Origin: a virus
DNA: 64,000 nt
Strand: one strand, 5' to 3'
IMG/VR virus record: IMGVR_UViG_3300034175_000063
Span: 1 to 64,000 of that record
A program made the translations under genes and the position numbers. Positions within the stretch are counted from its first letter, which is position 1, and each line of letters opens with the position of its first letter. The notes under the pieces were generated by a model. That model saw nothing but the letters and a program-made list of their open reading frames with translations, did no database searches and was not told the origin of the DNA. This document shows positions 16,645 to 55,804 of this stretch, piece after piece.

Positions 16645-19113
16645 ATGCAAGTTGCACACCAACAGGACCACATCACCCACGCTGTTATCGGAGGCGCGGC
16701 AACCATCGACTTCGGTATCAGCAGCAGCGCCGAGTTCTTCAACATCCTGTCCAGCACGCTGTACAAGGACCAGATCCTCGCCGTGGTGCGTGAAGTCCTG
16801 TGCAACGCATGGGATGCCCACATCGAAGCCGGCATCATCGACCGTGCGGTCGAGATCACCCTGCTCGAAGACAAGTTCACCATCCGTGACTTCGGCACCG
16901 GTATTCACCGCAATGACATGGGCCAGATCTACGGCACCTATGGCAACAGCACGAAGAAGAACGACGGTCAGCAGACGGGCGGCTTCGGCCTCGGCTGCAA
17001 AGCACCGTTCGCCTACACCGACCACTTCGAGGTGATCTCCCACCACGACGGCGTACGCACGATCTACAACCTGAGCAAGTCGTCGGCCGCCGCCCGCGGC
17101 AAGCCGGGCATCGTCCCGATCGCTTCGTTCCCAACGACGGAATCGGGCCTGCAGGTGTCGATCGACATCCACAACGCCACCGACTTCAAACGCTTCCAGC
17201 GTCTCGTGCGTCGTATCGCTCGCAATGGCGACATGAACATGAAGGTGAACGGCGATCAGATCAGCAAGCTCGGCTTCGACACCGTTGAATCGAACTACCT
17301 GATCACGCTGGACCAGCAGCAAGAAATCATGGACGCCGATGGCCAACGTATCATGGTCCGCTACGGCAATGTGATCTACCCGGTTGACCGGGCCGGCTCC
17401 ATTTCTCTTGGCTTCGACCAGGTGGTCGGTCACCTCGACAAGCTGAAGGTCGGCCACAGCCGTTCGTACTCGATCATCTTCCAGGCACCGCCGCACTCCA
17501 TCTCGGTCACCCCGAGCCGGGAATCGCTGTCGATGCAAGAGCACACCGTTGCAACGCTGAACGGTTTGTTTGCTGGCTTCATGGAAGAGGTCAATGGTGG
17601 CTTCGTTCCGGCCTGTCACGCCTACGCGGAAATGGCAGTAAAGATGGCCGTGGCCCAAACCATGCGCAAAGATCTGCTGTCGCGCGAATGTAAGCTGCCG
17701 TACGTCATGGACAAAAGCACGCCGAACAAGATCAGTGATTTGGTGACCATGGCACGTCGCTACATGGAGTCGAACTACCCAAGTGGTTTGGCCTTCCGCA
17801 AGAAGGACATCACCTGGCGCCTCGAAGGCATGGCCGCGTCTGGCCAGCTGGACCGTGGCATGGTGCAGACCTTCATGCGTGAGCTGGCCAACGTGACGAC
17901 GACGAAGAACTGCGACGAGTGGGACTTCCCGAAAGAGCAGCGGACCATGTGGCTGCAGCGGCACGTCATCGCCCCGATCATCAACAAGATGGGCAAGGCT
18001 GGCATCGACTACACCCGGCTGTACGTTCTCGACAAAGAGGACACGCGGGTGCCGGACAACTACTACTACAAGGACAAGGAGCCAATCGCTTTGGCCACTG
18101 ACGCTCGGCCAATGCATTTGTTCAACACGCTGCCGTACATGCGCAAGATCGTGGTGGTCAGCACCTCGGCGAAGGGTATCCATGATCGCGCCAAGCGGCA
18201 TGATGTGCTCAAGACCCTGGGCACCGAGCATGGCTACCTGTTCTTCAAAGCCAGCATGAAAAAGAAGGAGCGTGAAACGGAGCTCGCCTTCTTCAAGGCA
18301 CTCGGCATGGTCGTGGTCGACCTCACATTCCGTCAGGAGTGGGAAGCTTCACCATCGCGCTCGAGCGGTCCCCGCAAACCAGCAAGGAAAGGATTGCCGT
18401 CACTGAAAGCGATGAAGCTGAGCGATGGCTCGGTCGACACGCAGCAGGTTAAGCAGGACACCGTTCTGCGTATCGTTAATCCGGAATTCTCGGTGTGCGT
18501 GTCACTGCGCAAAGAGAACCCCTCCAGCATGCTGGGCCGGTTCGATGGCAAGTGCACGTCGCACATCATTGACTTATGGGGCGACAAAGGCGTCATCATC
18601 AACAACTCAACGTTGCATGAGAAGGCCATCAAGGCCGGCGCCATGGAGCTCGAAGCCTATGTGGAAAAGAAGGTCGTTGAAGTCATGCTCAACAGCCCAC
18701 GGATCCTCGAATACTGGGCTTTTGATCGTCAACGTGCGTGTGACCACTTCACGGTTTATAGCGATGAGGCGGCCGAGATGATCAAGGTCGTCTACAACAG
18801 TGAGCTGCTGCGCAACCAGTTCCAGCTGGTGAACAACCTCACCGACGACGAGAAGAAGATCATCCCGTTGTACCGTACGTTGCAGCAGCTGCAGCGTTAT
18901 GGCCTGTCGGCCGAAATGAAGGCGGTTGAAAAACTGCTGGCCGACGTGCCGATTGATCCTCTCAACGGTGTGCTCATCGAGAAGTTCCGGCACCCTAATC
19001 CGCTGCTTGCGGTGTTTGATAAAAAAGCCCTTACCCGCATGCTGCGCAAGGCTAGTCCTACCAGCCCACAAATCATAAAGATGACCCAGATCCTGGCCAT
19101 CGCCCTTAACTAA
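16645..19113 (+). CDS. rIIA: rIIA-like protein (N-terminal GHKL/HATPase domain)
   Basis: LYKDQILAVVREVLCNAWDAH, IRDFGTGI, YGNSTK, GGFGLGCKAPFAYTD; precedes the rIIB-like gene. Confidence 0.9.
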   Translation: MQVAHQQDHITHAVIGGAATIDFGISSSAEFFNILSSTLYKDQILAVVREVLCNAWDAHIEAGIIDRAVEITLLEDKFTIRDFGTGIHRNDMGQIYGTYGNSTKKNDGQQTGGFGLGCKAPFAYTDHFEVISHHDGVRTIYNLSKSSAAARGKPGIVPIASFPTTESGLQVSIDIHNATDFKRFQRLVRRIARNGDMNMKVNGDQISKLGFDTVESNYLITLDQQQEIMDADGQRIMVRYGNVIYPVDRAGSISLGFDQVVGHLDKLKVGHSRSYSIIFQAPPHSISVTPSRESLSMQEHTVATLNGLFAGFMEEVNGGFVPACHAYAEMAVKMAVAQTMRKDLLSRECKLPYVMDKSTPNKISDLVTMARRYMESNYPSGLAFRKKDITWRLEGMAASGQLDRGMVQTFMRELANVTTTKNCDEWDFPKEQRTMWLQRHVIAPIINKMGKAGIDYTRLYVLDKEDTRVPDNYYYKDKEPIALATDARPMHLFNTLPYMRKIVVVSTSAKGIHDRAKRHDVLKTLGTEHGYLFFKASMKKKERETELAFFKALGMVVVDLTFRQEWEASPSRSSGPRKPARKGLPSLKAMKLSDGSVDTQQVKQDTVLRIVNPEFSVCVSLRKENPSSMLGRFDGKCTSHIIDLWGDKGVIINNSTLHEKAIKAGAMELEAYVEKKVVEVMLNSPRILEYWAFDRQRACDHFTVYSDEAAEMIKVVYNSELLRNQFQLVNNLTDDEKKIIPLYRTLQQLQRYGLSAEMKAVEKLLADVPIDPLNGVLIEKFRHPNPLLAVFDKKALTRMLRKASPTSPQIIKMTQILAIALN

Positions 19114-19122
19114 GGAAACCCC

Positions 19123-21645
19123 ATGAATCATAAAACAATCCGCGTCGTTGCCGCGGTAGTGGATACGCGCAACCTCACGCTGTACAAAGAGGACGGCACC
19201 ACCGTCGTCATCGCTCAAGGTGATGTACGCCTGCGCAAGATCGTCGAACAGGCAGCACCACAGCTGGTCCGCAATGGCTGGGCCGACGTCGACATCAGCC
19301 AGCCCGAAGAACCTTCCTATGCGGACTTTGAAAAGGAGGGCAGCGGTGCTGTGAAATTCTTTCGCATCGCCAAGTCGAAGTTGAAGCAGCTTTTTGCTGC
19401 TGAACCTGCTCCTGTCGACATGACGCCGGTGCCACCGTTGTCCATCGGTCCCGTGCCTGTGTCGGCTTCGCCGACGGCACTTCCCGATGTCCTGCCGGTG
19501 ACCCCAGCTGCTCTTACCACGGCGGCTGCACACCTGGAAATCATGCAGGCCAACGCCGACATGATCAGCGATACGCTGGGCGTGGCCCGTCAGAACTGGG
19601 TCAATGTGGTGGCAGCCGTTGCTGCGGCGCCTGGTGCTGACATCACGCCGGCACCGGTGGTGACCTCCAGCCCGTTCCCAGGTGTTGGCCAGGATGGTGA
19701 TCCACAGGTGGATGACGAGCCAGAAGAAGAGGTCATCCAGCATGAACCTTCCGAGCCGGCCGTCAAGCACACCATGAACGTCGTCAACGAAATCCTGAAG
19801 CACGCCGTCCCGGTGAGCTCGCCGGAATTCCACGAAGAGACGGTGGCCAAGCAGGGCAACGTGGTGGAAGAATCGGGTAGCACCGACAAAGGCCACGGCG
19901 ACGACAGCAAGCCCGACACCATCATCGCAGTGGTGGATGGCAAGGTGATCCCCGGTATGGAACGCATCAAGACGCAGTTCGGTCGTGCAGCGAAGCTGGG
20001 CAGCACTGCCGGCGTCGAAGCATTCCTGAAGCGCCTGGCGTCCACCATCGAAGCCCGGTCGCACTCGGTTGAAGACCTGCTCAAGTTCCTAGAGCGGGCC
20101 GATCTGCCGATCGCCGACGACGGCAGCATCCTGATCTACAAGGTGCTACGCAAGAACAGCACCACCGGCAAGTACGTGGACTGTCACACCCGCAAGGTGG
20201 AACAGTTCGTCGGCGCCTACGTATGCATGGATCCGTCGCTGGTCGACCACAACCGCAACAACGAGTGCAGCAATGGACTCCACGTCGCGCGCCGTGGTTA
20301 CATTCGCAGCTTCAGCGGCGATGTGTGCGTGTTGGCCAAGCTGGCACCGGAAGATGTCATCACAATTCCGGTCTACGACGCCAACAAGATGCGTGTCTGC
20401 GGCTACCACATCATCGCTGAGCTTTCCCAGGCCCAGTACCAGCGTCTGCGGGAGAACCTGCCGATCACCAACACCGAAGACGGGCAGAAGTTGCTCGCCC
20501 AGATGATGGCCGGCAATCACATCCGTCGCACACATGAAGTCCGTATCACGGGCGGCATGGGTGAAGGCGTGAAGACCACGGAGATCCCGGAACGCAAGGT
20601 CACCATGGCCGACATTCCAGCCTCCCTGGTTTCGGCAGCCGCCGACGCTATCGAGATCTTCGGTGACGACGAGCTCGAGCACTTCGCAGCACAGCAACGC
20701 GCAAGCGAGGCCGTGCCGGCGCCGGTGTCCGATATCCAGAATCGCGTGTTCGCCATCGTGCACGAGCAACTGGGTGTGGAGCTGGACGACATTGAGCTCG
20801 ACTCGAACTTGTCGAGCGATCTTGGTGCTGACTCGCTGGACGAAGTGGAACTGGTGATGTGCATTGAAGACGAATTCAATGTGGAGATCCCCGATGAAGC
20901 CGCTGAAAGCGTCAACACCGTGGGCGACATCATCACCTACATCGAAAAGCGTCTTGGTGTGGTGCCTGCTGCACCGGTACACACGCCGGTCAAGCCGGCC
21001 CCCGTGCTGGCAGTAGCATTGTCCAACCCGGATGGTCCGCAGTCCGACACCCCAACCGATCCATTGGACGTGGTGAAGACCGTGGCCAAGGTGACCGAAG
21101 AGGTACAGCTCTCCCGCAAGGAGCAGGCAAAGGCTCTGTACGACGCCTGGAACACCGCAGCTGACGCCGACAAGGCTGACCGCTACGCAGCCCTGCTGGC
21201 ATTCAAAAAGGCCGCCAAGAAGGGCTGGGACGTGCTGGGGATCCCTGATCCCACGGTGAAGGTAAAAGGGACCGTCAAGGTTGCCCTGGCGCCGAAGCCG
21301 AACACCACGCCAAAGCTGTTCCCTGCAGTCGAGGAAGTGAAGCCAAAGCCAGCTCACGCTGATGCTGTGGCCAAGCTCGATCGCAAGGTGGTGAAAGGCG
21401 ACAAGAGCTTGCCAGTGGCGTCCAAGACCCCTCCGATGCCGAAGGTACAGCCCCCGGCTGAAACCAGCAAGGAAGATGGGCCGCCGAAGATGCGTATCGC
21501 CAAGCTGCTGGCCATTGGCCTGGACAGTGCCGGCATCGCAGCATCCGTGCTGGCCATCAAGAAGTCAGCGAAGAAGAGCTGGGAGATCCTGGGTGTATCC
21601 GAAGCCCAGGTCGCCGAGATCTTGAAGCAGACCGGGAAGTCCTAA
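19123..21645 (+). CDS. rIIB: rIIB-like protein with an embedded acyl carrier protein domain
   Basis: rIIB core LPIADDGSILIYK...DCHT...VDHNRNNECSNGLHV...KLAPEDVI..P.YDANKMRVCGY; ACP-like segment at 20728-20955. Confidence 0.88.
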   Translation: MNHKTIRVVAAVVDTRNLTLYKEDGTTVVIAQGDVRLRKIVEQAAPQLVRNGWADVDISQPEEPSYADFEKEGSGAVKFFRIAKSKLKQLFAAEPAPVDMTPVPPLSIGPVPVSASPTALPDVLPVTPAALTTAAAHLEIMQANADMISDTLGVARQNWVNVVAAVAAAPGADITPAPVVTSSPFPGVGQDGDPQVDDEPEEEVIQHEPSEPAVKHTMNVVNEILKHAVPVSSPEFHEETVAKQGNVVEESGSTDKGHGDDSKPDTIIAVVDGKVIPGMERIKTQFGRAAKLGSTAGVEAFLKRLASTIEARSHSVEDLLKFLERADLPIADDGSILIYKVLRKNSTTGKYVDCHTRKVEQFVGAYVCMDPSLVDHNRNNECSNGLHVARRGYIRSFSGDVCVLAKLAPEDVITIPVYDANKMRVCGYHIIAELSQAQYQRLRENLPITNTEDGQKLLAQMMAGNHIRRTHEVRITGGMGEGVKTTEIPERKVTMADIPASLVSAAADAIEIFGDDELEHFAAQQRASEAVPAPVSDIQNRVFAIVHEQLGVELDDIELDSNLSSDLGADSLDEVELVMCIEDEFNVEIPDEAAESVNTVGDIITYIEKRLGVVPAAPVHTPVKPAPVLAVALSNPDGPQSDTPTDPLDVVKTVAKVTEEVQLSRKEQAKALYDAWNTAADADKADRYAALLAFKKAAKKGWDVLGIPDPTVKVKGTVKVALAPKPNTTPKLFPAVEEVKPKPAHADAVAKLDRKVVKGDKSLPVASKTPPMPKVQPPAETSKEDGPPKMRIAKLLAIGLDSAGIAASVLAIKKSAKKSWEILGVSEAQVAEILKQTGKS

Positions 21646-21650
21646 AAACA

Positions 21651-21678
21651 GAAAAGCCCCCAGTGTATCGGGGGCTTC
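21651..21678. terminator. Intrinsic terminator between convergent rIIB and the lysis block
   Basis: AAGCCCCC-N8-GGGGGCTT hairpin with an A-tract on the left (U-tract on the minus strand). Confidence 0.75.
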
Positions 21679-21716: not shown

Positions 21717-21875
21717 TCAGTGGCCTTCGCAAGGGTGTCGGGCATCACGCCCTTCATCATTGCAGTCTGGACAGAACGGTCGGTAGACGGCGCCATTGCC
21801 GCCTTCCGGCCTTTCATCCTCTTCCTTCTTGGCTTGACCGTTGACGACGAGCAGCTGAGCAAGAAAGGACATCAT
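21717..21875 (-). CDS. Small hypothetical protein (52 aa, CPDC motif; not in ORF track)
   Basis: ATGA overlap with the o-spanin stop; MMSFLAQLLVVNG...FCPDCND...HPCEGH. Confidence 0.45.
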   Translation of the reverse strand: MMSFLAQLLVVNGQAKKEEDERPEGGNGAVYRPFCPDCNDEGRDARHPCEGH

Positions 21876-22192
21876 TTTTTACCTCCAGCGAGCGCCGCGG
21901 TGCGGCATTCGTAGTATTGACCGGCTACCCGAGCCAGCATTGTGCTGGTCGTCCCAAACAGATCATCGGATAGGAGAGACAGTTCGGGGCACGCTGCCAC
22001 CACTGTCGCGTCCGGCCCCACCTGCTTTGCCGGAGAGGGCATCGTTGAGCAACCGAAAAGCATCAGGATCATGCTTGCAATCCCGATACACAGGATTGTC
22101 TCGTACGATCGTTTCCACTTTTCCTTGAATGGTGGTATTGCGAACTTTAATTTTTGCAATTTCACTTGCGGCTCCTTGCCGTGCAATTTCAC
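21872..22192 (-). CDS. Putative o-spanin (Rz1-like lipoprotein); true start probably downstream of 22192
   Basis: Lipobox LFGC, Pro-rich, overlaps the i-spanin in another frame. Confidence 0.7.
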   Translation of the reverse strand: MKLHGKEPQVKLQKLKFAIPPFKEKWKRSYETILCIGIASMILMLFGCSTMPSPAKQVGPDATVVAACPELSLLSDDLFGTTSTMLARVAGQYYECRTAALAGGKK

Positions 22193-22331
22193 GAGTATCT
22201 TCGATAGCCTGTTTGATTTCGGCTGCTTTGGCCAATTGGCTGTCCTTACCGACGCCGGTGCCGTACCAGTACGAACCGCCTATCGAAGCCACCCAGATAA
22301 CAACTGCAGCTAACGCTGCCCACGGGTTCAT
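21963..22331 (-). CDS. Putative i-spanin (Rz-like)
   Basis: N-terminal TM helix followed by coiled coil; directly downstream of the endolysin. Confidence 0.75.
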   Translation of the reverse strand: MNPWAALAAVVIWVASIGGSYWYGTGVGKDSQLAKAAEIKQAIEDTREIARQGAASEIAKIKVRNTTIQGKVETIVRDNPVYRDCKHDPDAFRLLNDALSGKAGGAGRDSGGSVPRTVSPIR

Positions 22332-22846
22332 TGCGCCCCCATGCAGGTTTTGTAACGAGCCTGCTGGCGCTCCCATACGCCCCAGCATCGTTGATTGGGT
22401 CGACCGTTCACCAAGGTGGAACAGTCGTACCCGCCTGAGAACTTATATGCCAACAGCGCCCCGCAAGCGCCTGCATAGTCGGCCCGCAGGAGCTTGGTCC
22501 GCATGGACGAGCCCGACCAGGCGCCCGTGCCGTATTGGTAGACCCAATCCATGTAGGTGTCGTACTCGACCTGACTGAGCTGCACACCAGGCATCGAGTT
22601 GCGGAAGATGACTTCTTCCTTGGTGATGTGCACCTGGGCGACGCGCAGCGCGCGCACTGGGGTGACCTTCTGACCCATCTGGACCGGCTTGCCGTCTTCC
22701 CAGAAGGTAGAACCGTAGCCAACCGTTGGCCGGTCGTTCTTGGTGGGGATCACAGCACTGTCGGTGAAGCCTTCATGCGACACCAGGCCGATAAAGGCCA
22801 TGGCACTGAGCATGAGGCCGGCGACGGCCATACGTGGTTTACTCAT
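22328..22846 (-). CDS. Endolysin, GH24 lysozyme family, probable SAR type
   Basis: Weakly hydrophobic N-terminal anchor then HEG...TVGYGST; GACGALLAY. Confidence 0.88.
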   Translation of the reverse strand: MSKPRMAVAGLMLSAMAFIGLVSHEGFTDSAVIPTKNDRPTVGYGSTFWEDGKPVQMGQKVTPVRALRVAQVHITKEEVIFRNSMPGVQLSQVEYDTYMDWVYQYGTGAWSGSSMRTKLLRADYAGACGALLAYKFSGGYDCSTLVNGRPNQRCWGVWERQQARYKTCMGAQ

Positions 22847-23162
22847 CGACAGTCTCCTCTTCAATAACTTCGACCAGCTTGACGCGCTTCTTGGCCGAAG
22901 AGCAGTAGCCCATGCTGGCCAACATCGGTCGGATCATTTTCTTCCACAGGTATTCGCTCAACGCCAGGAGCGACAGGACGAAAGCCAGGAAAGCAGCAGC
23001 ATCGGTCCACGAGCTGATGCCAATGGCTGCCCAAACGAAGCCGATCTTGGCGCCCTGGCTGGCAACCACGTTGACGGTTGTTTCATTGAATTCGGTGCTC
23101 ATAGGCTTCGCTTTAAATGTGGTGGATGACTGGTAACCGTATTTTACCTTGTTCGTAGGCAT
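22839..23162 (-). CDS. Putative holin
   Basis: Hydrophobic helices, charged C-terminus, upstream of the endolysin; GGAG before ATG 23162. Confidence 0.65.
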   Translation of the reverse strand: MPTNKVKYGYQSSTTFKAKPMSTEFNETTVNVVASQGAKIGFVWAAIGISSWTDAAAFLAFVLSLLALSEYLWKKMIRPMLASMGYCSSAKKRVKLVEVIEEETVDE

Positions 23163-23223
23163 TATTACTCCGAAGAATGAGTTGTTTAACGGAATTGTTG
23201 GATTCCGCACAGAAAGTACGCGA

Positions 23224-23679
23224 TTATGTCTCGTTGAACTGTTCGCTAACAGACACAAGGCGCTTCACAACTTGATACAGCGCATTCGGTTCCATTCGCC
23301 ACGGCTCATTGATGAGGAGCGCGGCAGCGATTGCTTCGGAGCAGAAATATTTATCGGCGCTATCAGATACGAACCCGATTGTTAGGTGGACATTACCCCA
23401 CAGGTCGTACTTACTACCCTGGTGAACGACGAACCACTGTCGTGCAGCTGGTTCCCACTCAATTGGAAGCTCGATGAAGTCCCAATTGTCACCACCAAGT
23501 TCCATTTCTTTCCACCGAACGCCACCATCAGCAAACGACGATGAGGCACACCAGCCCCCAGGAAAGCACAATTCCACATGGCTGTAAGGCCCACGGCCGC
23601 GGGATCGAACCAGGCGGTTATATACGCCGGCGACGCCGGGCCGTGTGCCCTTATAAAAGGCTATGCGAAAGGTATTCAT
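23224..23679 (-). CDS. Permuted papain-like (YiiX/C92-type NlpC/P60) protein
   Basis: His before Cys: YSHVEL...KYDLWG...YFCSEAIA. Confidence 0.65.
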   Translation of the reverse strand: MNTFRIAFYKGTRPGVAGVYNRLVRSRGRGPYSHVELCFPGGWCASSSFADGGVRWKEMELGGDNWDFIELPIEWEPAARQWFVVHQGSKYDLWGNVHLTIGFVSDSADKYFCSEAIAAALLINEPWRMEPNALYQVVKRLVSVSEQFNET

Positions 23680-23687
23680 GCTGTTCC

Positions 23688-24182
23688 TTATGGGGCTGCT
23701 GGGTCCATGATGTTCACGTCTACATACACCGTTTTGTCTACAAAGCCACCTGAGTCCGTGACACGACAATTCATCACGCAGCTGCCGGTAAAACCAAACT
23801 TACCGACGGCGTGGCGTACCTGGCCTGTTGCCGCATTATTAGTGATCAGCGTGAATCCACCAGCATTGCTGATGAACGTCCACAGATAAGTCTTGGCGCT
23901 GCCATTACCACCGGCTGTTACCGCAACTTGTGGATACCAGTTGCCTGTATAAGCAGTGCCAGTAGCATAATCAGTGTCATCCACATCGTATCCAGCCACC
24001 GTCATCGGTGTGTAGGCCGACTTGCCATGCAGCTGCGACATGCTGATGGTTGTGCCGGCGCCCCCGGCGCCAGCCAGAGTGCGAATGCTGGCCAGATTCA
24101 GGTTGATACCGGCCTGGCCAATACCCAGTTCGATCCGAACCTGGTCCATGGAAATGGGGTTGGGGGATGCGGGCAGAGTCAT
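23688..24182 (-). CDS. Tail-fibre-associated protein
   Basis: MTLPAS..ISMDQVRIELG...ISMSQLHGKS N-terminus typical of tail-tip/adhesin proteins; lies in the tail operon. Confidence 0.55.
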   Translation of the reverse strand: MTLPASPNPISMDQVRIELGIGQAGINLNLASIRTLAGAGGAGTTISMSQLHGKSAYTPMTVAGYDVDDTDYATGTAYTGNWYPQVAVTAGGNGSAKTYLWTFISNAGGFTLITNNAATGQVRHAVGKFGFTGSCVMNCRVTDSGGFVDKTVYVDVNIMDPAAP

Positions 24183-45355: not shown

Positions 45356-48300
45356 TTACTGCCCGTTGTACACCGCCGTGGTGAATGGTCCGGTCAGCAG
45401 GCCCACCGTGGTCACCGAATCCAACGAGCCGAAGTAGCTCAGCGCGCCGGCGTTAAACGGATTGCCGAAGTGGTGGATGAAGCTCGAGTCCATCACCGTC
45501 GGCTGGTCCCCCAACATGTGCTCGGCCGCCATCAAGGCGAGTACCCGGCCAGGCGAGTCCTTATAAATACGTGCAAGCACCTTCTGGATGCGAACATAGT
45601 ATTTCGAGAACATGATCAACCCCGTGTCATTAGCGTACTGGATTTTCCGGTGCGTCGGGACGTCGTAGTTGATGAACGCTTCGGAAGCGCGCTGCACAGC
45701 TTGCTCATGGGTCATCGACTTGACGTCATGCTGGTACAGCGTGTACCGGGCCAGGAAGTCACTGATCTGCGTTGCGTAGCTCATCATCTTGTATGGCGCC
45801 GTGCTGTGGTGCATGGTGAGCAGCTGCACGCCTTTCAGGATGTGTGGGTTCACACCTTCGATGAAGCCGTCGACCTTTTCGTCGAACCGCGACTTGTACG
45901 AGTAGATGTCCTCATCGACGCCCACATCCTCAACGATGGTCGGCATCAGGCCGGCGTCGATCAGCGGACGGATCGGGTTGCGGGCCAGGCTGTCTTCCAA
46001 GCGTTGGATCAGGTAGGCGGCTTTGCTCGCATTCATGCCAGGTTCAAAGTGACCGATCGTCTGCTGGTGCTTCAAGGCGAACAGCTTGGCATTGTCCTGC
46101 TTGTATTCCCAGGCCGACTTGAACGCCACACGATGGCTGTCGAAGATCTGCTTCGGCGACACGCCCATCAAGAAAAGCTGCGACCAGTTCGACCGCAGGT
46201 TGCCCGTCATGGTCGACCACGATTTGACCACCAGGTTGGCCTTCGTCTCCTTGACGATCGCCTGCCAGATGTCTTCGGACTGGCGAGCACGCAGCTGGGC
46301 CTTGTCCTTGAAGGCATAGCTCATGATCTCGACGAACATGTTTTCGACGAAGCTGCGCTGTGCCTTTTCCTTTTCAAACACCGTGCCGATGCTGAGCTTG
46401 CGATAGCCGAAGTTCATGTCGAGGATGTCGTTGCGGACCAGCATGCCATCCTTGCCGAACAGGCTCTTGGCCAGCTGCTGGGTATCCCGCGGCAGCATGT
46501 CCCAGATTTCACGCAGCTGCGGATCAGCCGACGTCGGGCCGACCTGCAGATAGGCTTCCGGATGATCGGCAAAGTCCAGCTTGTACTGTTCGTGCAGAGC
46601 CTTGATGGCGTTGGCGTTCTGCACTTTCGACGCTACCTTGTCGAACGTGTTGCCGGCCATCGAGCCCAGCAGGTGATCGGTACGGTTGTCCCGGTTCAGC
46701 AGCTTGTCCTTGACGACGTTGCTCATCATGTAGCGGTAGTTGGTCACGTCACCGTTCGGGTTTAGCACTGGTGCCATGTGGGCTTCCTTGACCGCTGTTG
46801 GATCGAAGCCAGTACCAGTGAACATGCTTTGAATGGCCGGACGCTTACCGATCCGGATCGCTGCCATGTTCATCGCGTTCTGCTGGCCAGCCACCGATAC
46901 AGGGTGAGCACCGGTGATGACCTGGCTACCCTTGGCTTTGGAATCGGTCGTGCTGATGATGCCCGAGTTCCATTGTTTCAGGCCGCCGTCACGCAGCGAG
47001 TAGATCCGCTTTTGGTCAGATACCGGGTCCGCTGCGTCGCGCGGCAGGTAGCCGGGCATTGCCGTGTAACCTTTCTTGACCAGCTCGATACCCTCATCAT
47101 CGGTGGCCATCACCACCGTCATGTAGGGATCGTAAATCTCCGGGACGTAGCCTTTCATCTGCAGGGCTTCACTGTCCGAGAACAACTTGTCCTTGCTCTC
47201 GGCCTGCAATGCCGTGTGGGTCTTCATGATCATCTCGATGCCATGGCCACCGTCGGTGCGTGCTGCTTCAGCGGCAAACACCTCGGACAACATCTTCATG
47301 TCGACCCGGCTGGCGTACTTCAGCGCGTAGAGCGAAGCCAGACGATCAATGATCGGGGCGGCAGCCAGAGCCTGGGCCGGCGTGACACTCATGCCCGTGC
47401 CATACAGGCGGGCGATGTTCCCGGCGTTCATCAGCTGGTGGGCCGTGGCCACGCGGCTGGTGGCCATGAAGTAGCCCAGCCCTTTCGCCGAGTTGATGTA
47501 GAACCGGTTCATCTTGCCACCGGCAACGAGCTGAGCTTCATGCGAGTCGATCTCCGTCTGCAGGTCACTCGTGCTGTTGACCAGGTTCTGCAGCTGGGCC
47601 ACCGTGTAGGTGCCGAGCAGGGACTGCATGTCACCACGCAGGACCACCGCGGTGAGTGCTTTCTTCTGGTCGTCGGTCAGATCCTCACCTGCATTGACGA
47701 AGGATCCCGATACCGCTTTCGAGATGTTCGAGATGGTGTCCTTGCGGATACCCTCCAAGTGCTTGGTGCCACGCAGCAGGAAGTGGTAGACCTTGTTCAT
47801 GTCGGTTGCACCGCGTACTTCGTTCATCAGCGATGCTGCAACGCCGAGCTGGCCGGTCATCGTCTTGTCGCGCAAGCGAAGGTAGGCATCCATGATGGCG
47901 TCGACGCGATCGCCGGCAACCGCCGACATGACATTGCCACCCAGCTTCACGAAGGCGTTACCGCTGTTCTGGAAGAAGGGCTTCTTGCCGAAGGCTTCCA
48001 CCGCCGCGCGCACCGAGTCGCTCATGTCTTCGGCCGTGTCGGCGATGCGGTTCAGCGTCTGCGAGGCGCCGGACGTGATCCGGTTGTGACGCTTGGCTTC
48101 GATCTCGACCATCTGCTTGACCAGGGCGTTCAGCTTCTTGTCAGCCATCTGGCCGCGGAAGGTCTTCGTCAGGCGGCCGGCCACCCAGCTCATGATCGTG
48201 TTGAAGATCTTGTTGAGCCGTTCGTTGAAACCCATGCTTGGATTGTTCGTGGCGCCGGTGGCAGTGTGAAACTGCAGTTGCTCGCGGAAGCCAGAATGCA

Positions 48301-51300
48301 CCAGGCCCAGGGCGGCAAAGCGGCTCATGTAATCGGACTTGCCGGTGGCATCCTGCTTGATGGCGAAGACGAAATCGTAGAGTGCCTTGGCCTGATCCTT
48401 TTCGATCTGGGTGGCCGTGGTCCAGTCGCCCTTGTGGAAGGATTCGACCGTCAGCTTGGCCCGGACCTCGTTGTAGAGGCGGGTCATTTCCTTGTAGGCG
48501 ACCGTCATCACACCGTCGTTGTGCGACAGTGCAGTGCGCATCGTGGCTTCTACCTGCTCCAGGACGAAAGCTTCCTGATCGGTGAAACCGAAACCAGCAG
48601 CCAGAGACTCGGATGCGAACGGGGCCACGCCGGTGCTCAGTGCATCAGCGTAGACATCCAGCGGATCCTGTGCGGTCTGCTCCATGAGAGCGGCCTTGAA
48701 GGAACCGAAGGGACCATACACCGACTTCACCAGCGTTGACAACAGCCCTTGCAGGTGCGTGCTGTGTTCAGCCGAGATCTGGGCGCCGTTGTTCGACTGG
48801 GCCAGCGCAGCGTAGATGTCCAGGGTCGACAGGTCACGCACGTTTGCGGCGCCAGGCGTCGAGATGGCCAGGGTTACCGGGCCGGCTGCTGCCGGTTTGT
48901 TTTGCTGCGCTGCCTGCTCGAACAAGCCAGACACATTCGACAAGAACGTGGTCATACCGCTGCTCATTGCAGCGTTGGGACGACCGAAGAACAGAGCTGT
49001 AATCTTGTCGATAAATGCGGCCATTGCCGTGATCAGGCGGTTGCCACCGGTCTTCGACGTGTAGCTGATGGCGGCCATTACATCGTTCTGGAACTCAGCG
49101 TTGGTCATGCCGTAGGCAATGAACTCGTCCAGGTTCTCAAAGACACGGGAGTAATACGCGATGCGGTCTGGCGACTCGCTGCTGGCCACGTATTGCTTGG
49201 CCATTTCCATCAACGCTTCGAGCTCTTCGACCAGCTTCAGTGCATCACTGGTATAGGGCTTGGCCGGCTTCTCTCCTTCGTTGTTAATGATCTCACCATC
49301 GCGGATCGCCTGCTCAGCGCGCGTCGTCTGCACCAATGCAGCGTGCACCATCTCGTGCAGCAGTACCTCGTTGTCGAGGCCCGAGTACACAAAGTCGTCG
49401 GACATCACGTAGATGGCTTGGTTTTCAATGCCGTCAGCTACGTTTATATACATGCCGCGGGCATTCTGGCTGATCTCGTGGTGGATCAGGTCAGCCGGTA
49501 CGGTGTCCTTGGTGATGTATTTCACCACCATGTTGCCGGCGACAGTGCGCTCCAGCTGTGACAGCAGCTTCATGCTAAAGTCGTCCTTCATGGTCTTGCG
49601 CAGCAGGGCCACCACTTCCTTGACGGTTTGATTCGGCTTGGCCTTAAATGCTGCGGTTAGCTTAGGATCATAACGGCCGAGAGGCTTGCCCAGTTGAGCA
49701 ACTGGGTTGGCGTTCACCGGCTTGGTTTCCATCTCCGGGTCGGCTTTCGCTGCTCCCTTTTTCTCTTTGGCCGGGCGGCTGGCCATCTCAGCCTTGATCG
49801 CTGCTTCCAGCTTATCTGACACCGAGGTGAGGGCCGAGCGGTCGACGTCTGAAACACCGACCTCAAGCGCCGAGCGCAGCGAGGCCGCCGAGGAACGGTG
49901 GGAAGACTCGACAGCGAAGGCACCACCCTCCATCGCATATTGATTCACCGCCGTCATGGTCGACATCGTGTCCAGCTTCATGCTGTCGGCACGATAGGCC
50001 ATGCTCTGGGCCAGCTCAGCCTGCAGGTACAGCACGCCTTCAGGTGGGACATCGTGCTTCTCAGCGAAGGTCACCAGCGACTTGGCCAGCTTGGCCATGG
50101 TCGCATCCGATACCTTGCCGGCCGCCAGCATAGCATTCAGTCCACGCACCGTGCGCAGCAGAGCGTTCTTCACCTCGTTCGCCGGCGAGTAGTTCAGCAT
50201 GGTGTCCCAGGTCGCTTCGTTCATGCGACGTGCTGTCTCAACGATGCCGCCGACACCGTGACCCTGTGCATCGTGGATGTTGAGGGCTTGGCCATCGACG
50301 TTCGCACGCACCGAGATAGCCGAGTCGGCCGAGTGCATCGACACTGGGACCATGGCCACACCTGGGCCGGCTGGCGTTGTCTCATAGCCGTGCACCTGGG
50401 TGCTCTTGCTACCATCTTCAAATGGCTGGCCGAACTTCACCACATTCTGGTAGGTGTCCTTGTCCGAGAGCTTGCGCTCGGCTTTGGCCACCATGATGCC
50501 TGCCTCCAGGTCTTTCGATTCTTGGGACATCGGCGTGTTCATCACCGGCAGCAGGGCGGCCGTCTGCTTGCGCAGTTCAACTTCCTGAGCGTTGGTGAGA
50601 TCGTGGATCGGCACACCGGTCTTCGGATTCACTGCCATCTTGCCGTCGGCGACCAGCTGCGTGATCATCTCTTCGCGCATGCCCTGGTACACAGCGTTGT
50701 AGACTTCAAACGTCAGCTGTGCTGTCTTGTTGAACTCGGTACGTTGGGCGATGAAGACCTCGAAGTCCTGCTTCATGGTTTCTTCCACGGCCACGCCGAG
50801 CGAGTCCTTGAAGGCGCCCTTGAGTGTCTTGATCTGCTGGCTGGTGAACTCGTGTTCCATCAGGTCGATGTTGGTCGGCAGCCGCACACCCATCACCTCC
50901 AGGTGCAGCAGGATTTCGCCTGGTGTCATCTCGCCTTCTTCAATCGCCGTGTAGATCGAGTCGACGAAGTTGTCGGCCATCGAGTCCACTGCGTTGTTCA
51001 CCGACGAACCGAAGACCATCGCGGTCAGCGGGGTCTTGATGATGTTCCGGCCTGCCTTTTGCACGACGCCTTTGCTGTCGGCCAGCTCGCCAGTGAAGGC
51101 GTAGATCGAAGCCATGAGCTCAGGATCCAGGTTGGCAGCATTGATCGCCTGCGTCATGTGCAGGGCCGTGTTCTCGTACAGATCGAAGTTCTCCGGCGCG
51201 TCGCGCCAGGTGTTGTATTCGATATGGTCGTTGCCTTGCTCGAAGAAGCCACCGCGGTTCAGTAGGGCGTACATCTCCTTGACCGTGTTGGCCGCGCCCA

Positions 51301-54300
51301 GCAGCAGATGCGACAGCATCGGGCCGTTGGTCACACCGTCCACCTCGGCCATCATCTGCGTGGTGAACTCGGTGGCGCCGGCCTTCTTGGCCACTGTCAT
51401 CTGGGCCATGGCCATCAGCGCATCAAGCGAGTGCATGTCCTCACCACCAGCCTTCACGCCGGCCACCAGCACTGCCTGATCGTTCTCGGACAGCACACCG
51501 CTTTCGGTGCCGGTCAGCGACTTAACGAGCACGGCCACGGCTGCTTTGATCTCTGGCTTGGCGACCAGCTTGTTGAAGTCGGCGAGGGCTTTTTCCTTGC
51601 TCTTCTTGTCGGTCTTGACGCCCAGTCCTTCTGCAACGCGCAGCTTGAAATTCGTCATGGCTGCGGTATCGCCGAAGGCAATCTTCGTTTCCCAGGCCGA
51701 ACGGTACAGCATGTGACGGTGGATCTTGCTGGTCTGTGGATTGATCATGTTCGTGGCGATACCGACACGCTGCTGCATCCAGACAGAGTGTTCAAAGTAC
51801 ATGGCCGCGTCACTACCGACTTCACCGACGTAGTTCATGAACCGCTCGAGCTCGCGTGCCAGGCCATCATTCTTGGCCTGCAGGGACTTGCGGCGGCTCT
51901 TGTGCACGACCTTGTTCGGGTCTTCCTGACCTGCGATCTGCAGCATGGTGTCCGGGGACACCTGGCCGGCCAGGTTGAACATGTCGGCCCGGACATAGCT
52001 CGCCTCGGCGTCATCACGACGCACCTGCTCAGCCAGCTCCGAAGGGATGGCCATGCTGGTGTTGCGGGTGGTCTTCTGCTTCGATTCCACCGGTGACGAC
52101 GACGGCGCCTTCAGTGCCGGCTCCACGCCGAACAGCTTGTCGAGGATCCCGTTCGTTCCCTTGTTGGCTTGGAAAATCGCTTCGGCCTGCTCACCGAGTT
52201 TGCCATCGGCACGGGCCAGCTTCAGGAAGTAGAACTTCGCATTGGTCTGGGTTTTGTCGCTCTTCGTCAGTTCAGCCATTTCCTGGCCGGTGATCGTGTT
52301 GCGGGTCAGGATACCCTGGTCCAGCAGCAGCTTCATGGCATGGGCACCGATCGACGCTTCCAGATCGGCCTGCAGGTTACGCGGAGCGGAAGCCAAGGAT
52401 TTAAGACCAAGGGCCGCAACAATCCGCTGGCCGAGTGCATTGGCCACGATGTTCTGACGTACGCCGATGTGCTCCAGTGCGTTGTATTCAAGCGTCGACA
52501 CCGGTGCAGATTCATCCCGACCGAGGATGGCATTGATGTCTTCCTTGGTGTTGAGCTCCGGACGTGTGGCCGCTTCAGCGACCCAGCTAAATGCACCGTA
52601 GGCGATTGCCGTCATGGTGTTCTCATCGAGCTTGCCGTCGGCGTTCATCAGGAACTGGATCGGGTCTTCAAAACCGTAGCCGGGATTGCCCTTCCGCAGG
52701 TTGGCCGTGATGTTACCGGCCCATGCCGTGGCCGTGGCCAGGAAGGTTTTCAGTACCAGCTTTTGCTCATCGCTTGGGGCTTCCTTCGACGACAGGAATT
52801 CCGACAGCTTGAAGCCTTCGGCCTTGTTCTTCCATGCCGAGAGGAAGTCGACCAGCTTAGCCAGCGGACGCTGGGTGCCGGTGTCTTCATTGCCGGCCGA
52901 CTGGACGAAGTGTGCCCCGACCAGGTTCTGTTCCTGGTATGGCAGCGAGGTGTCATGTGCGACGTCGAAGACGGTGAGCGTGGTGGTCTTTTCCTTGACC
53001 TCCTGGGTCGCCGCAGCTTCAGGCGTGGCCGTCTCTGCAGCGGGCGCTGGGTTCGCTTCGCTCACCGCTGGCTGCTCGACTGCTGCCGCCTTCGCTGCTG
53101 CTTCCCGTGCCTCACGTTGGGCTTTGGATTTGGCCAGGTTGTCAGCGACACGCTGGTCCTTGTCGTTGCCGGCCAGGACGTTTTTCTTCGGCTCGGCCGA
53201 TGCCTCATTATTTGCATCTGGTGCAGATTTCTTGCGTGACTCGATCACGTAGCCCGACTTGTCGGCTTTGCGTGTGGCCTTCAGGCTCTCACCCAGGAAG
53301 TTGTCGTATAGATACTTCTCCGCTTCCAGCGACGTGGCGAATTCCTTGCCGACGTGGACGACTTTTTCTTTCTTCTCAGACTTAGGGGGAGCTTCAGCGG
53401 TGGGGAGTTCAGCTGGTACAGCTGGACGTGCGGTGTCCTCCTCAATTTCTGGGGTACTGATATTACCGGAGGGTACATTGTCTTGCTTGGAGGATTCGGA
53501 TTGTACGCCAAATTTCAAAGATGTGGCGGAATTCATTTCGGTATGGGTGGCACGCAACGCTTTCGCCTCGTTGGCGATCTCGTTGACCAGGCGCCCGGAG
53601 TTCAGGGCCAGGCCGCCGTTGGCACGGAGATCCTTTTCCTTGAAGGTGCCAGGCGGGTGGGATTCCCATTTCTTGTCCGTCTTGTTGTAGACGATCTGGG
53701 CGCCCATACCGTAGTCGGCCATGGCCTCGCGGGCGGTGGCTGCCTTGTCTTCGTGGTTGATGGCGAACGTCTCCAGCCCGGTCATGGCACGGTCGGCCGA
53801 CACCTGGCTGTTCGAGGCGATCGCTGCTGCGATGCGCGAGCGGTATTGCGAGATGCCGACGTTCTTGGCAGAGCCAAACAACACCTCTTGCGACACCTTC
53901 GACTGGGTAGACAGGGCGTTCTCGGCCTGACGAGCATCGCTGAACACGCGAAGATGCGCACGCTGCGAATCCGTCAGCGAGTTGGTGGTGTCATCAGCCA
54001 GCTGCAACGCTGCTGTGTGGGACAGAGCATCCGGCTGCGACATCGACAGGTTCACCAGTCGGGTAGCAGCGGTGTTGTCGGCCGCTGCTGCGGTGACCAG
54101 CGTGCCTACTTCTTCCGGCGTGGCCACTGCCTCATTGGCGTTGACCAGTCCACCCATGAAGTTGCGGCCGGCTGAGAGCTGGCGATCCAGAGCGGACAGC
54201 ACAGCACGCGACTTGCTCGCTGCCTGGGTGTCGGTGGCGTCAGCCAGCACATCCTTCCAGCCGTCGCGGAAGTCCTGCAGTTCGGCGATCTTGACCGCAT

Positions 54301-55726: not shown

Positions 55727-55804
55727 GGTATTCCTGGTTGATTCGGGTGAGAGCCCATTATATACAAGTTGCACTGGGTCAAGTAGTCTTGACCCAGATT
55801 TACT

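What the first reader, a model, noticed from the sequence alone, without database searches (positions are those of the whole stretch)
20725..20955. Complete acyl carrier protein domain inserted in rIIB
Seen: SDIQNRVFAIVHEQLGVELDDIELDSNLSSDLGADSLDEVELVMCIEDEFNVEIPDEAAESVNTVGDIITYIEKRL is in frame within rIIB, flanked by Pro/Ala linkers. It aligns over its full length with bacterial AcpP (DLGADSLD.VELVM.LEEEF..EIPDE.AE.I.TV), and the phosphopantetheine-acceptor Ser is intact (codon 20833-20835, residue 571). A GTG sits where the acpP start codon would be. Known: T4 rIIA/rIIB overcome lambda RexAB exclusion and associate with the membrane; host ACP binds SpoT, MukB and fatty-acid/lipid A enzymes. 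Inference: a captured host acpP gives rIIB a 4'-phosphopantetheinylated/acylated module for membrane anchoring, hijacking lipid metabolism, or decoying ACP-dependent host or defence proteins. I know of no described rIIB-ACP fusion.
Basis: partly seen in the sequence, partly recalled or inferred. Interest (0 to 1): 0.85.

Follow-up and report, generated by a model that had tools for sequence, protein, structure and literature searches.

The report
Acyl carrier domain inside phage rIIB
An uncultured N4-type soil-crust phage has a complete bacterial-type acyl carrier protein spliced in frame into its rIIB protein; the same pairing recurs in at least 37 other wild rIIB lineages, which gives a testable lead to how the long-mysterious rII proteins work.

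Summary
Window 20725-20955 encodes a full AcpP-type carrier domain (PF00550, 51 bits against a cut-off of 20.8). Its model fits solved AcpPs at TM 0.84-0.96, and Ser571 of the DSL motif is intact. It lies in frame within an 840-aa rIIB, just downstream of rIIA, in a complete 77.6-kb N4-type phage from a biocrust metagenome.

The domain is a clean 93-residue insertion (S528-H620) in a disordered linker. The 11 closest rIIB relatives lack it, and so does a ~85%-identical sibling phage seen in two biocrust samples. A second assembler reproduces both junctions.

The fusion is not unique. An exhaustive profile search found 36 more rIIB+ACP protein clusters, in both domain orders. On the rIIB tree the window's case is a separate, recent gain within the N4-type clade. 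No cultured phage or paper with the fusion was found. This scan has noted it before in at least six other genomes.

The phage encodes no PPTase or acyl-handling enzyme. Six of 40 fused ACPs have Asp or Glu in place of the Ser (0 of 192 free ACPs) while keeping helix II. This favours a docking role over obligatory acyl carriage.

"Captured from the host" is not shown: the nearest ACPs are only 55-63% identical, and codon use matches the phage.

The parts
16645..19113 (+). rIIA (822 aa) with an N-terminal GHKL-type ATPase domain; operon partner directly upstream of rIIB
   Evidence: phrog_2979 RIIA E 1.9e-172; PF13589 HATPase_c_3 at residues 47-154, E 3.8e-9
19123..21645 (+). rIIB with embedded ACP (840 aa; the end includes the stop codon)
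   Evidence: phrog_2886 RIIB end to end, E 3e-154; PF26926+PF00550 listed for the identical protein P0002
19123..19422 (+). conserved N-terminal region of N4-type rIIB (residues 1-100)
   Evidence: many invariant columns in alignment A1
19423..19770 (+). hypervariable linker 1 (residues ~101-216); relatives carry unrelated inserts here
   Evidence: alignment A1 columns 101-270
19771..20592 (+). rIIB core domain (residues 217-490) with the universally invariant C382-S-x-G-L-H387 motif
   Evidence: AlphaFold2 pLDDT 94.8, pTM 0.91; invariant columns across both rIIB clades; no solved relative, only weak ART-fold rows with Z <= 3.8
20704..20982 (+). the insertion relative to the closest rIIB (S528..H620, 93 residues): linker, ACP, linker
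   Evidence: absent from all 11 closest relatives, with flanks conserved in P0003 and P0004; the sibling phage contig skips 20621->21009 and has 108 nt in place of 387
20725..20955 (+). AcpP-type acyl carrier protein domain (residues 535-611)
   Evidence: PF00550 at 51-58 bits; phrog_5934 acyl carrier protein E 8e-22; solved AcpPs E ~1e-20 to 1e-17; model TM 0.84-0.96 to ACPs
20833..20835 (+). codon of Ser571, the putative 4'-phosphopantetheine acceptor (D-S-L at the N-terminus of helix II)
   Evidence: sequence read directly; invariant column in 50 ACP relatives; helix II starts at this residue in the model
21010..21642 (+). C-terminal region of N4-type rIIB, with two copies of a basic KKxAKKxW..LG motif (residues ~691-709 and ~810-833)
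   Evidence: invariant columns F694 K695 K696 K699 W702 L705 G706 and K813 K818 S819 W820 L823 G824 in A1

Best explanation
The window encodes a genuine single-chain rIIB-ACP protein of an N4-type phage. A whole AcpP-length carrier domain sits on flexible Pro/Ala linkers between the conserved rIIB core and the basic C-terminal region. It was gained recently in this lineage. It is one instance of a recurrent pairing of rIIB with ACP in wild phages.

Shown here: the domain, its fold, the intact Ser, the clean insertion, the ACP-less sibling, the recurrence in two domain orders, and the absence of any phage-encoded PPTase or acyl enzyme.

Inferred, by the logic that proteins found fused in some genomes usually work together: rIIB's unknown function is physically coupled to the host acyl-carrier network. 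Unfused rIIBs would then engage host AcpP or ACP-client proteins in trans, and the fusions supply the ACP in cis.

The window's domain keeps every residue that AcpS and fatty-acid enzymes recognise, so the host AcpS most likely converts it to the holo form. The property under selection is probably the helix-II docking surface, which would bring rIIB (with rIIA) to ACP-binding host or defence proteins, or occupy them. Transfer of acyl groups is probably not the selected property.
For: - Domain and fold.
- Clean insertion in a linker. Both flanks have pLDDT ~50-60.
- Recurrence: 38 of the 152 proteins scanned (the best 150 of the profile search plus the window's own protein and P0264) have both an rIIB core and an ACP, 34 as core->ACP and 4 as ACP->core. 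Two more lie on IMG/VR contigs, each directly downstream of an rIIA.
- Independent events: on the core tree the window's protein is sister to the ACP-less P0003 (95% support), inside a well-supported set of 38 in which 37 lack an ACP. Well-supported branches force at least 5 gains or losses.
- Docking rather than carriage: the Ser is replaced by Asp or Glu in 6 of 40 fused ACPs and in 0 of 192 free ones (Fisher p 1.9e-5), while D36, L38, D39, E42, E48 and F51 stay 88-100% conserved.
- Dependence on the host: no PF01648, PF00501, PF01553 or PF00109 in the complete genome. The complete 165-kb genome of another fusion-bearing phage also has no PPTase.
- Codon use of the insert equals that of the surrounding genes.
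Against: No experiment or interaction prediction links the rIIB core to ACP. The inference from fusion can fail for promiscuous domains, and phage ACPs are also fused to other, unrelated partners (L008, L016, L051, L011, L030). Within the N4-type clade only 2 of 96 representatives carry an ACP, and the sibling phage manages without it, so the domain is dispensable there. The window's ACP still looks like a housekeeping AcpP, so nothing in its own sequence separates docking from carrying. The Ser-loss statistic comes from other lineages, and the free-ACP comparison set was chosen for similarity to the window's ACP. Support at the junctions comes from contigs, not raw reads, and the only full-length holder is probably the source sample.
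Confidence: 0.5

Rival explanations
1. True carrier. The domain is made holo by the host AcpS and loaded with an acyl or malonyl group by host enzymes. The tethered acyl-phosphopantetheine is what matters. It could be a substrate or cofactor of an enzymatic rIIB core, a way to siphon acyl groups from lipid synthesis, or a lipid handle at the membrane.
For: Ser571 and all AcpP hallmark residues are intact. 34 of 40 fused ACPs keep the Ser. The model superposes on acyl- and holo-AcpP structures. The rIIB core has an invariant Cys-Ser-x-Gly-Leu-His motif that could be catalytic.
Against: Six fused ACPs carry Asp or Glu at the Ser position and cannot bear the cofactor, yet they keep helix II. No loading or transfer enzyme is encoded. 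From textbook knowledge of AcpP, acyl-ACPs bury the chain inside the helix bundle, which makes a membrane anchor unlikely. No enzymatic fold could be assigned to the core.
Confidence: 0.25
2. Neutral passenger. A whole acpP-length gene landed in frame in a permissive, disordered rIIB linker. It is tolerated and has no function in this phage.
For: The insert is a singleton within its close clade (1 of the 120 best rIIB hits). A sibling without it coexists in the same habitat. The rIIB linkers are hot spots that hold unrelated inserts in relatives. The domain looks unmodified from a housekeeping AcpP.
Against: The same pair has been joined repeatedly in distant rIIB lineages. The frame is open, every hallmark residue is kept, and codon use is fully phage-like. 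In the source run the ACP-bearing contig has the higher depth (18 against 2.6-5; contig depths are a weak measure).
Confidence: 0.15
3. Separate product. The ACP, or the ACP plus the C-terminal part, is also made on its own from an internal start. The candidates are GTG 20725 and the in-frame ATG 20605.
For: GTG 20725 aligns with the Met1 of free ACPs. ATG 20605 (M495, conserved in P0003 and P0004) has AAGG 5 nt upstream.
Against: GTG 20725 has only a GAGG 14 nt upstream. No stop codon follows the ACP, so any internal product would run on to the rIIB C-terminus. No expression data were found: 0 RNA runs hold the stretch.
Confidence: 0.06
4. Assembly chimera that joins a bacterial acpP to a phage rIIB.
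For: The only complete holder is a single metagenome, and only contigs could be examined.
Against: A second assembler gives an identical 4,868-nt contig across both junctions at even depth. An identical 157-nt piece occurs in another sample. The insert is in frame with linkers on both sides and has phage-like codon use. The genome is closed by terminal repeats.
Confidence: 0.02

Closest known systems
Phage T4 RIIB (Pfam PF26926 Phage_T4_rIIB; PHROGs 609 and 2886), partner of RIIA
   Same: Same core domain with the invariant CSxGLH motif. Same operon order, with rIIA (GHKL ATPase) directly upstream. phrog_2886 matches end to end.
   Different: T4 RIIB and all rIIB genes found in 50,697 GenBank phage records have no carrier domain. 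This one is of the N4 type, is 840 aa long, and carries long linkers, an ACP and a basic repeat tail.
Bacterial type II fatty-acid-synthesis acyl carrier protein AcpP (PF00550; e.g. PDB 1acp, 1l0h, 2ehs)
   Same: Full-length alignment at 47-53% identity to solved AcpPs. Same four-helix fold, the DSL serine at the start of helix II, the acidic recognition helix, and a net charge of -18.
   Different: It is not a free 78-residue protein but an internal domain of a phage protein. No cognate synthase or fatty-acid enzymes are encoded alongside it. Modification is unproven.
Free-standing phage ACP genes (phrog_5934; e.g. Prochlorococcus phages P-HM1/P-HM2, Ralstonia phage phiRSL1, Vi01-like phages)
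   Same: Phage-borne AcpP-like proteins. The window's segment matches phrog_5934 at E 8e-22 (PMC3220722).
   Different: Those are separate small genes, mostly in large phages. Of the 78 IMG/VR ACP loci kept besides the two fusions, none had an rIIA or rIIB match within about 6 kb. In Vi01-like phages the ACP gene lies ~76 kb from rIIB. None was found in a cultured N4-like phage.
Other rIIB-ACP fusions of uncultured phages
   Same: The same two domains in one chain. Most keep the Ser, the linkers are flexible, and rIIA lies upstream where context is known.
   Different: 36 of the 38 belong to the other deep rIIB clade (T4/jumbo type). There the ACP is C-terminal, internal after a Cys-rich segment, or N-terminal. 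The window's fusion is a separate, recent gain in the N4-type clade, and its ACP is still indistinguishable from a housekeeping AcpP.

Membership tests
Acyl carrier protein / PP-binding (PF00550), AcpP type | Profile score above Pfam's gathering cut-off | tested here: met
   51.4 bits in the whole protein and 57.8 bits for the segment; cut-off 20.8
Acyl carrier protein / PP-binding (PF00550), AcpP type | Four-helix bundle fold | tested here: met
   AlphaFold2 pLDDT 85-93 with four helices; Foldseek gives 144 ACP chains at E <= 1e-3, TM 0.84-0.96
Acyl carrier protein / PP-binding (PF00550), AcpP type | Asp-Ser-Leu motif with the acceptor Ser at the N-terminus of helix II | tested here: met
   D570-S571-L572, codon 20833-20835
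Acyl carrier protein / PP-binding (PF00550), AcpP type | Acidic helix-II recognition surface (D-x-L-D-x-V-E-L-V-M..E-x-E-F) | tested here: met
   All positions match the free-ACP consensus
Acyl carrier protein / PP-binding (PF00550), AcpP type | Covalent 4'-phosphopantetheine on the Ser (holo form) | not testable with these tools
   Needs mass spectrometry or AcpS/Sfp labelling. No PPTase is encoded by the phage.
Acyl carrier protein / PP-binding (PF00550), AcpP type | Free-standing protein of ~75-80 residues | tested here: not met
   Embedded at residues 535-611 of an 840-aa ORF with no stop codon on either side
rIIB (PF26926 Phage_T4_rIIB; phrog_2886) | Family profile match over the protein | tested here: met
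   phrog_2886 at 515.9 bits, profile positions 1-551 of 552; PF26926 listed for the identical protein. PF26926 is not in the Pfam copy that I could scan myself.
rIIB (PF26926 Phage_T4_rIIB; phrog_2886) | Encoded directly downstream of rIIA (GHKL ATPase) | tested here: met
   rIIA at 16645-19113, 9 nt before rIIB
rIIB (PF26926 Phage_T4_rIIB; phrog_2886) | Invariant core motif C-S-x-G-L-H and the downstream K-x-R | tested here: met
   C382 S383 G385 L386 H387 K422 R424 are invariant in 75 sequences of both clades
rIIB (PF26926 Phage_T4_rIIB; phrog_2886) | Lets the phage grow on RexAB-carrying hosts | not testable with these tools
   Genetic assay; the host is unknown
N4-type phages (Schitoviridae-like) | Giant virion-packaged RNA polymerase | tested here: met
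   3,472-aa ORF at 45356-55774 (-), phrog_2206 virion RNA polymerase, 2029 bits; 77.6-kb genome with terminal repeats
NRPS/PKS-type carrier domain within an assembly line | Adjacent adenylation, ketosynthase or acyltransferase partner | tested here: not met
   No PF00501, PF00109 or PF01553 anywhere in the genome
ADP-ribosyltransferase fold (for the rIIB core) | Significant structural similarity to solved ART domains and a catalytic H-Y-E or R-S-E triad | tested here: inconclusive
   At least 12 of the 18 rows with Z >= 2 are ART or PARP domains by their titles, but the best is Z 3.8, rmsd 4.5 A over 90 residues. Foldseek E >= 0.3. The triad was not mapped.

The most novel reading that the evidence does not exclude
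The rIIB core is a remote ADP-ribosyltransferase-like enzyme or nucleotide-binding module whose natural partner or substrate is (holo-)ACP. On this reading the rII proteins defeat abortive-infection systems by acting on the host's acyl-carrier hub (lipid synthesis, SpoT, MukB and other ACP clients). The recurrent rIIB-ACP fusions, including Ser-to-Asp/Glu 'cofactor-mimic' versions, would be built-in partners or pseudo-substrates.
Probability: 0.08. Interest if true: 0.9.

Novelty: new variant of a known kind. Interest (0 to 1): 0.66.

Why it matters
rIIA and rIIB are among the oldest genes in molecular genetics. How they overcome RexAB is still unclear, and why rIIB alone triggers a bacterial gasdermin system is not explained either (10.1101/2023.05.28.542683). 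A domain fusion that evolution has made again and again is one of the few sequence-only clues to a protein's partners, and here it points to the host acyl-carrier network.

This window adds three things.
- The link also arose independently in the N4-type branch of the family.
- There is a natural pair of sibling phages, one with and one without the domain, in the same habitat.
- Loss of the cofactor serine is tolerated in fused ACPs but never seen in free ones, which narrows the mechanism toward docking.

The idea can be tested directly with T4 genetics and standard ACP biochemistry.

Tried and rejected
- **IMG/VR scans with single proteins** (L039 ORF, L053 ORF, P0264) found only the query itself or ACP-only loci. 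The pattern method reaches close relatives only.
- **Vibrio phage EniLVp02 rIIB** looked like a cultured example, with one tblastn piece over ACP plus core. It has no PF00550 and no DSL motif; it is HTH + linker + core. Rejected.
- **Alignment A4** (full-length rIIB plus free ACPs) put the ACPs in the wrong region (15-24% identity) and was discarded. No full-length model was made.
- **ACP phylogeny** is unresolved with 81 columns. A single clade of fused ACPs is not rejected (p-AU 0.227), so the claim of several fusion events rests on the core tree and the domain orders, not on the ACP tree.
- **Core model against the PDB:** Foldseek gave nothing at E <= 1e-3. The A3 profile against PDB sequences was swamped by ACP columns and says nothing about the core.
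- **PHROG label 'enoyl-CoA hydratase-like'** for ORF 23224-23769 has no Pfam support, so no link to the ACP is claimed.
- **Runs X3 and X4:** X3 gave one 151-nt piece identical over 20469-20619. X4 gave only short or partial pieces (26-164 nt laid, 85-95% alike). No habitat or variant claim is made from either.
- **Composition** gave no sign of foreign origin.
Full report
**1. The observation**

ORF 19123..21645 (+, 840 aa) follows a second large ORF, 16645..19113 (822 aa), after a 9-nt gap.
- The upstream protein is RIIA (phrog_2979, E 1.9e-172) with a GHKL ATPase domain (PF13589).
- The downstream protein matches the RIIB family phrog_2886 over positions 1-551 of 552 (E 3e-154).
- Inside it, residues 541-607 match PF00550 (PP-binding) at 51.4 bits against a cut-off of 20.8. 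The 77-residue segment alone (window 20725-20955) scores 57.8 bits and matches the phage ACP family phrog_5934 (E 8e-22).
- The segment aligns over residues 2-76 with solved type II AcpPs (Aquifex 2ehs E 4e-20; E. coli 1acp E 1.5e-17).
- An AlphaFold2 model of residues 495-640 has pLDDT 85-93 over 535-612, with four helices at 537-550, 571-585, 591-596 and 600-610. Both flanks have pLDDT ~50-60.
- Foldseek finds 144 ACP chains at E <= 1e-3, with target-normalised TM 0.84-0.96 among the 50 listed.
- Ser571 is codon 20833-20835 in GAC TCG CTG and sits at the first turn of helix II.

**2. The genome**

The window is part of a 77,648-bp IMG/VR record with direct terminal repeats, rated 100% complete.
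- A 3,472-aa ORF (45356-55774, -) is the N4-type virion RNA polymerase (phrog_2206, 2029 bits).
- The nearest cultured rIIBs are those of N4-like phages of Pseudomonas, Achromobacter, Erwinia, Enterobacter and others, at 38-49% identity.
- The only run holding the stretch in full is a biocrust metagenome.

**3. It is an insertion, and a real one**

- Alignment with the 11 closest rIIBs (up to 73% identity) shows that S528..H620 (nt 20704-20982) has no counterpart in any of them. The flanks (MADIPAS...AAQQRA before, VKPAPVLAVALSNPDG after) are conserved in P0003 and P0004.
- Of the 120 best rIIB hits in 5.8 billion proteins, only the window's own carries PF00550.
- Logan's independent contig of the source run (4,868 nt, depth 18) covers 19900-21674 with no difference.
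- In a second biocrust sample, a 5.9-kb contig of a ~85%-identical sibling skips 20621->21009 and has 108 nt in place of 387. The same sample holds a 157-nt contig identical to 20712-20857.
- Minor contigs in the source run (depth 2.6-5) end at 20621 and start at 21009, which fits the same ACP-less sibling.

So forms with and without the ACP coexist. These are contigs, not reads, and the full-length holder is probably the source sample.

**4. Origin of the domain**

- The nearest ACPs are free-standing bacterial-type proteins of 77-80 aa at 55-63% identity, from many phyla. No near-identical donor exists in the collections searched.
- GC3 (0.71) and a CAI-like index (0.711, against 0.705 +/- 0.074 for 231-nt windows of rIIA and rIIB) do not differ from the surrounding genes.
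- GTG 20725 aligns with the start Met of free ACPs, and the domain ends where they end. A whole gene-length unit was therefore embedded.

'Captured from the host' is plausible but not shown.

**5. The fusion is recurrent**

- A word-based search with the ACP region found P0264, a 485-aa protein with PF26926 plus PF00550 and the ACP at its C-terminus.
- Among 80 viral ACP loci from IMG/VR, two sit in rIIB genes directly downstream of rIIA:
  - L039 (165-kb complete phage): HTH, Lys-rich linker, ACP, core.
  - L053: core, Cys-rich segment, ACP, tail.
- A profile of the conserved core half plus the ACP was searched with HMMER against 1.84 billion representatives. It gave 3,361 hits at E <= 1e-30.
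- I scanned the best 150 with separate ACP and core HMMs. 36 new proteins have both domains, which makes 38 with the window's protein and P0264. 34 have the order core->ACP and 4 have ACP->core. This is a lower bound.
- No GenBank phage record (50,697) holds such a gene. No paper in the library mentions one.
- The scan's own notebook lists the same fusion in at least six other genomes. I reached the recurrence independently before reading those notes.

**6. How many events?**

- A tree of the rIIB core, with ACP columns excluded, splits into two deep clades (100% SH-aLRT).
- Clade I (T4/jumbo type) holds 36 of the 38 fusions. The four ACP->core proteins form one clade (99%).
- Clade II (N4 type, 96 rows) holds only the window's protein and the deep-branching P0274.
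- The window's protein is sister to the ACP-less P0003 (95%), inside a supported set of 38 with 37 ACP-less members.
- The trait needs 11 changes, of which well-supported branches force at least 5.
- The ACP tree itself is unresolved. A single clade of fused ACPs is not rejected (p-AU 0.227), so cassette exchange between phage rIIBs remains possible.

Either way, the window's gain is separate and recent.

**7. Clues to mechanism**

(a) The domain is an orphan. The complete genome has no PPTase (PF01648), AMP-binding enzyme, acyltransferase or ketosynthase. L039's complete genome has no PPTase either. In each genome the rIIB ACP is the only PP-binding domain. Any modification must come from the host AcpS.

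(b) The window's ACP keeps all AcpP hallmark residues, and its net charge is -18.

(c) Across fused ACPs the Ser column reads S in 34, E in 3 and D in 3. It is S in all 114 free and all 78 free-standing viral ACPs (Fisher p 1.9e-5). D36, L38, D39, E42, E48 and F51 remain 88-100% conserved. The cofactor is therefore dispensable in some lineages, while the partner-binding helix is retained.

(d) The rIIB core folds confidently (pLDDT 94.8, pTM 0.91) but has no solved relative (Foldseek E >= 0.3). The weak rows of the Foldseek-independent search are mostly ADP-ribosyltransferase folds (Arr Z 3.8, Scabin, PARPs, pierisin, PltA). This is below the level at which chance is excluded, so it is a lead only.

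(e) From the literature: rIIB's mode of action against RexAB is unclear, rIIB alone triggers a bacterial gasdermin system, and it is toxic in E. coli (10.1101/2023.05.28.542683).

**8. Reading**

- Most likely (about 0.5): a functional tethered ACP that links rIIB to ACP-binding host or defence proteins through helix II. It is probably holo in this phage.
- True acyl carriage: about 0.25.
- A tolerated passenger: about 0.15.
- A separately translated product: about 0.06.
- An assembly chimera: about 0.02.

Phage ACPs are also fused to unrelated partners, so the specificity of the rIIB link needs a proper census.

**9. Limits**

- No raw reads, RNA data or interaction models were available.
- The host is unknown.

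Noticed in passing
window 23224-23769 (-): This 181-aa ORF beside the lysis cassette matches phrog_1128 ('enoyl-CoA hydratase/carnitine racemase-like', E 4e-38). It has no Pfam hit at all. It occurs in only 25 GenBank phage records (Ralstonia jumbo phages, Moraxella and Pasteurella phages), none of them N4-like. It is an accessory gene of unknown function, and the PHROG label looks unreliable.
   Followed up: partly
window 21872-23258 (-): A lysis cassette runs convergent to rIIB and ends ~230 nt from it. It comprises a holin (22839-23258, phrog_21780), an endolysin with an N-terminal hydrophobic segment (22328-22864, phrog_7), an Rz-like spanin (21963-22388), and an overlapping ORF with a lipobox-like LFGCS (21872-22192) that may be the outer spanin.
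   Followed up: partly
window 19771-20592 (rIIB core, residues 217-490): The confident AlphaFold model has no solved relative. The only theme among the weak matches is the ADP-ribosyltransferase fold (Arr Z 3.8; PARP10/13/14/15/16, Scabin, pierisin, PltA at Z 2-3). The invariant residues C382, S383, G385, L386, H387, Y393, K422 and R424 could form a site.
   Followed up: partly
window 21193-21249 and 21550-21621: The rIIB C-terminal region holds two copies of a basic motif (AFKKAAKKGWDVLGIP and AIKKSAKKSWEILGVS) that is conserved across N4-type rIIBs. It may be a duplicated small binding module.
   Followed up: no
window 20596-20607: In-frame ATG 20605 (M495 of 'MADIPAS', a Met conserved in the two closest relatives) is preceded by AAGG with a 5-nt spacer. 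This is a possible internal start that would yield the ACP plus the C-terminal part alone.
   Followed up: no
P0011 (alignment A1 columns ~215-245); L053 5600-5760; P0264 residues 276-293: The rIIB linkers hold other inserts in relatives. These include Cys-rich CxxC...CxxC segments that look like zinc ribbons, placed between the core and the ACP in L053 and P0264 and in variable region 1 in P0011.
   Followed up: no
L008 24-1247; L016 5605-6441; L051 5656-6252; L011 5758-6252; L030 5644-6243: Other viral contigs encode ACP domains (PF00550, 39-56 bits) fused to partners with no Pfam match and no rIIB similarity. ACP is therefore a mobile module in phage proteins more generally.
   Followed up: partly
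L039 5752-5900; L101 4872-5000 (Vibrio phage EniLVp02): Some T4/jumbo-type rIIBs start with a helix-turn-helix (PF01381 in L039, E 1.4e-5). A similar N-terminus occurs in the cultured Vibrio phage EniLVp02, whose rIIB otherwise lacks an ACP.
   Followed up: partly
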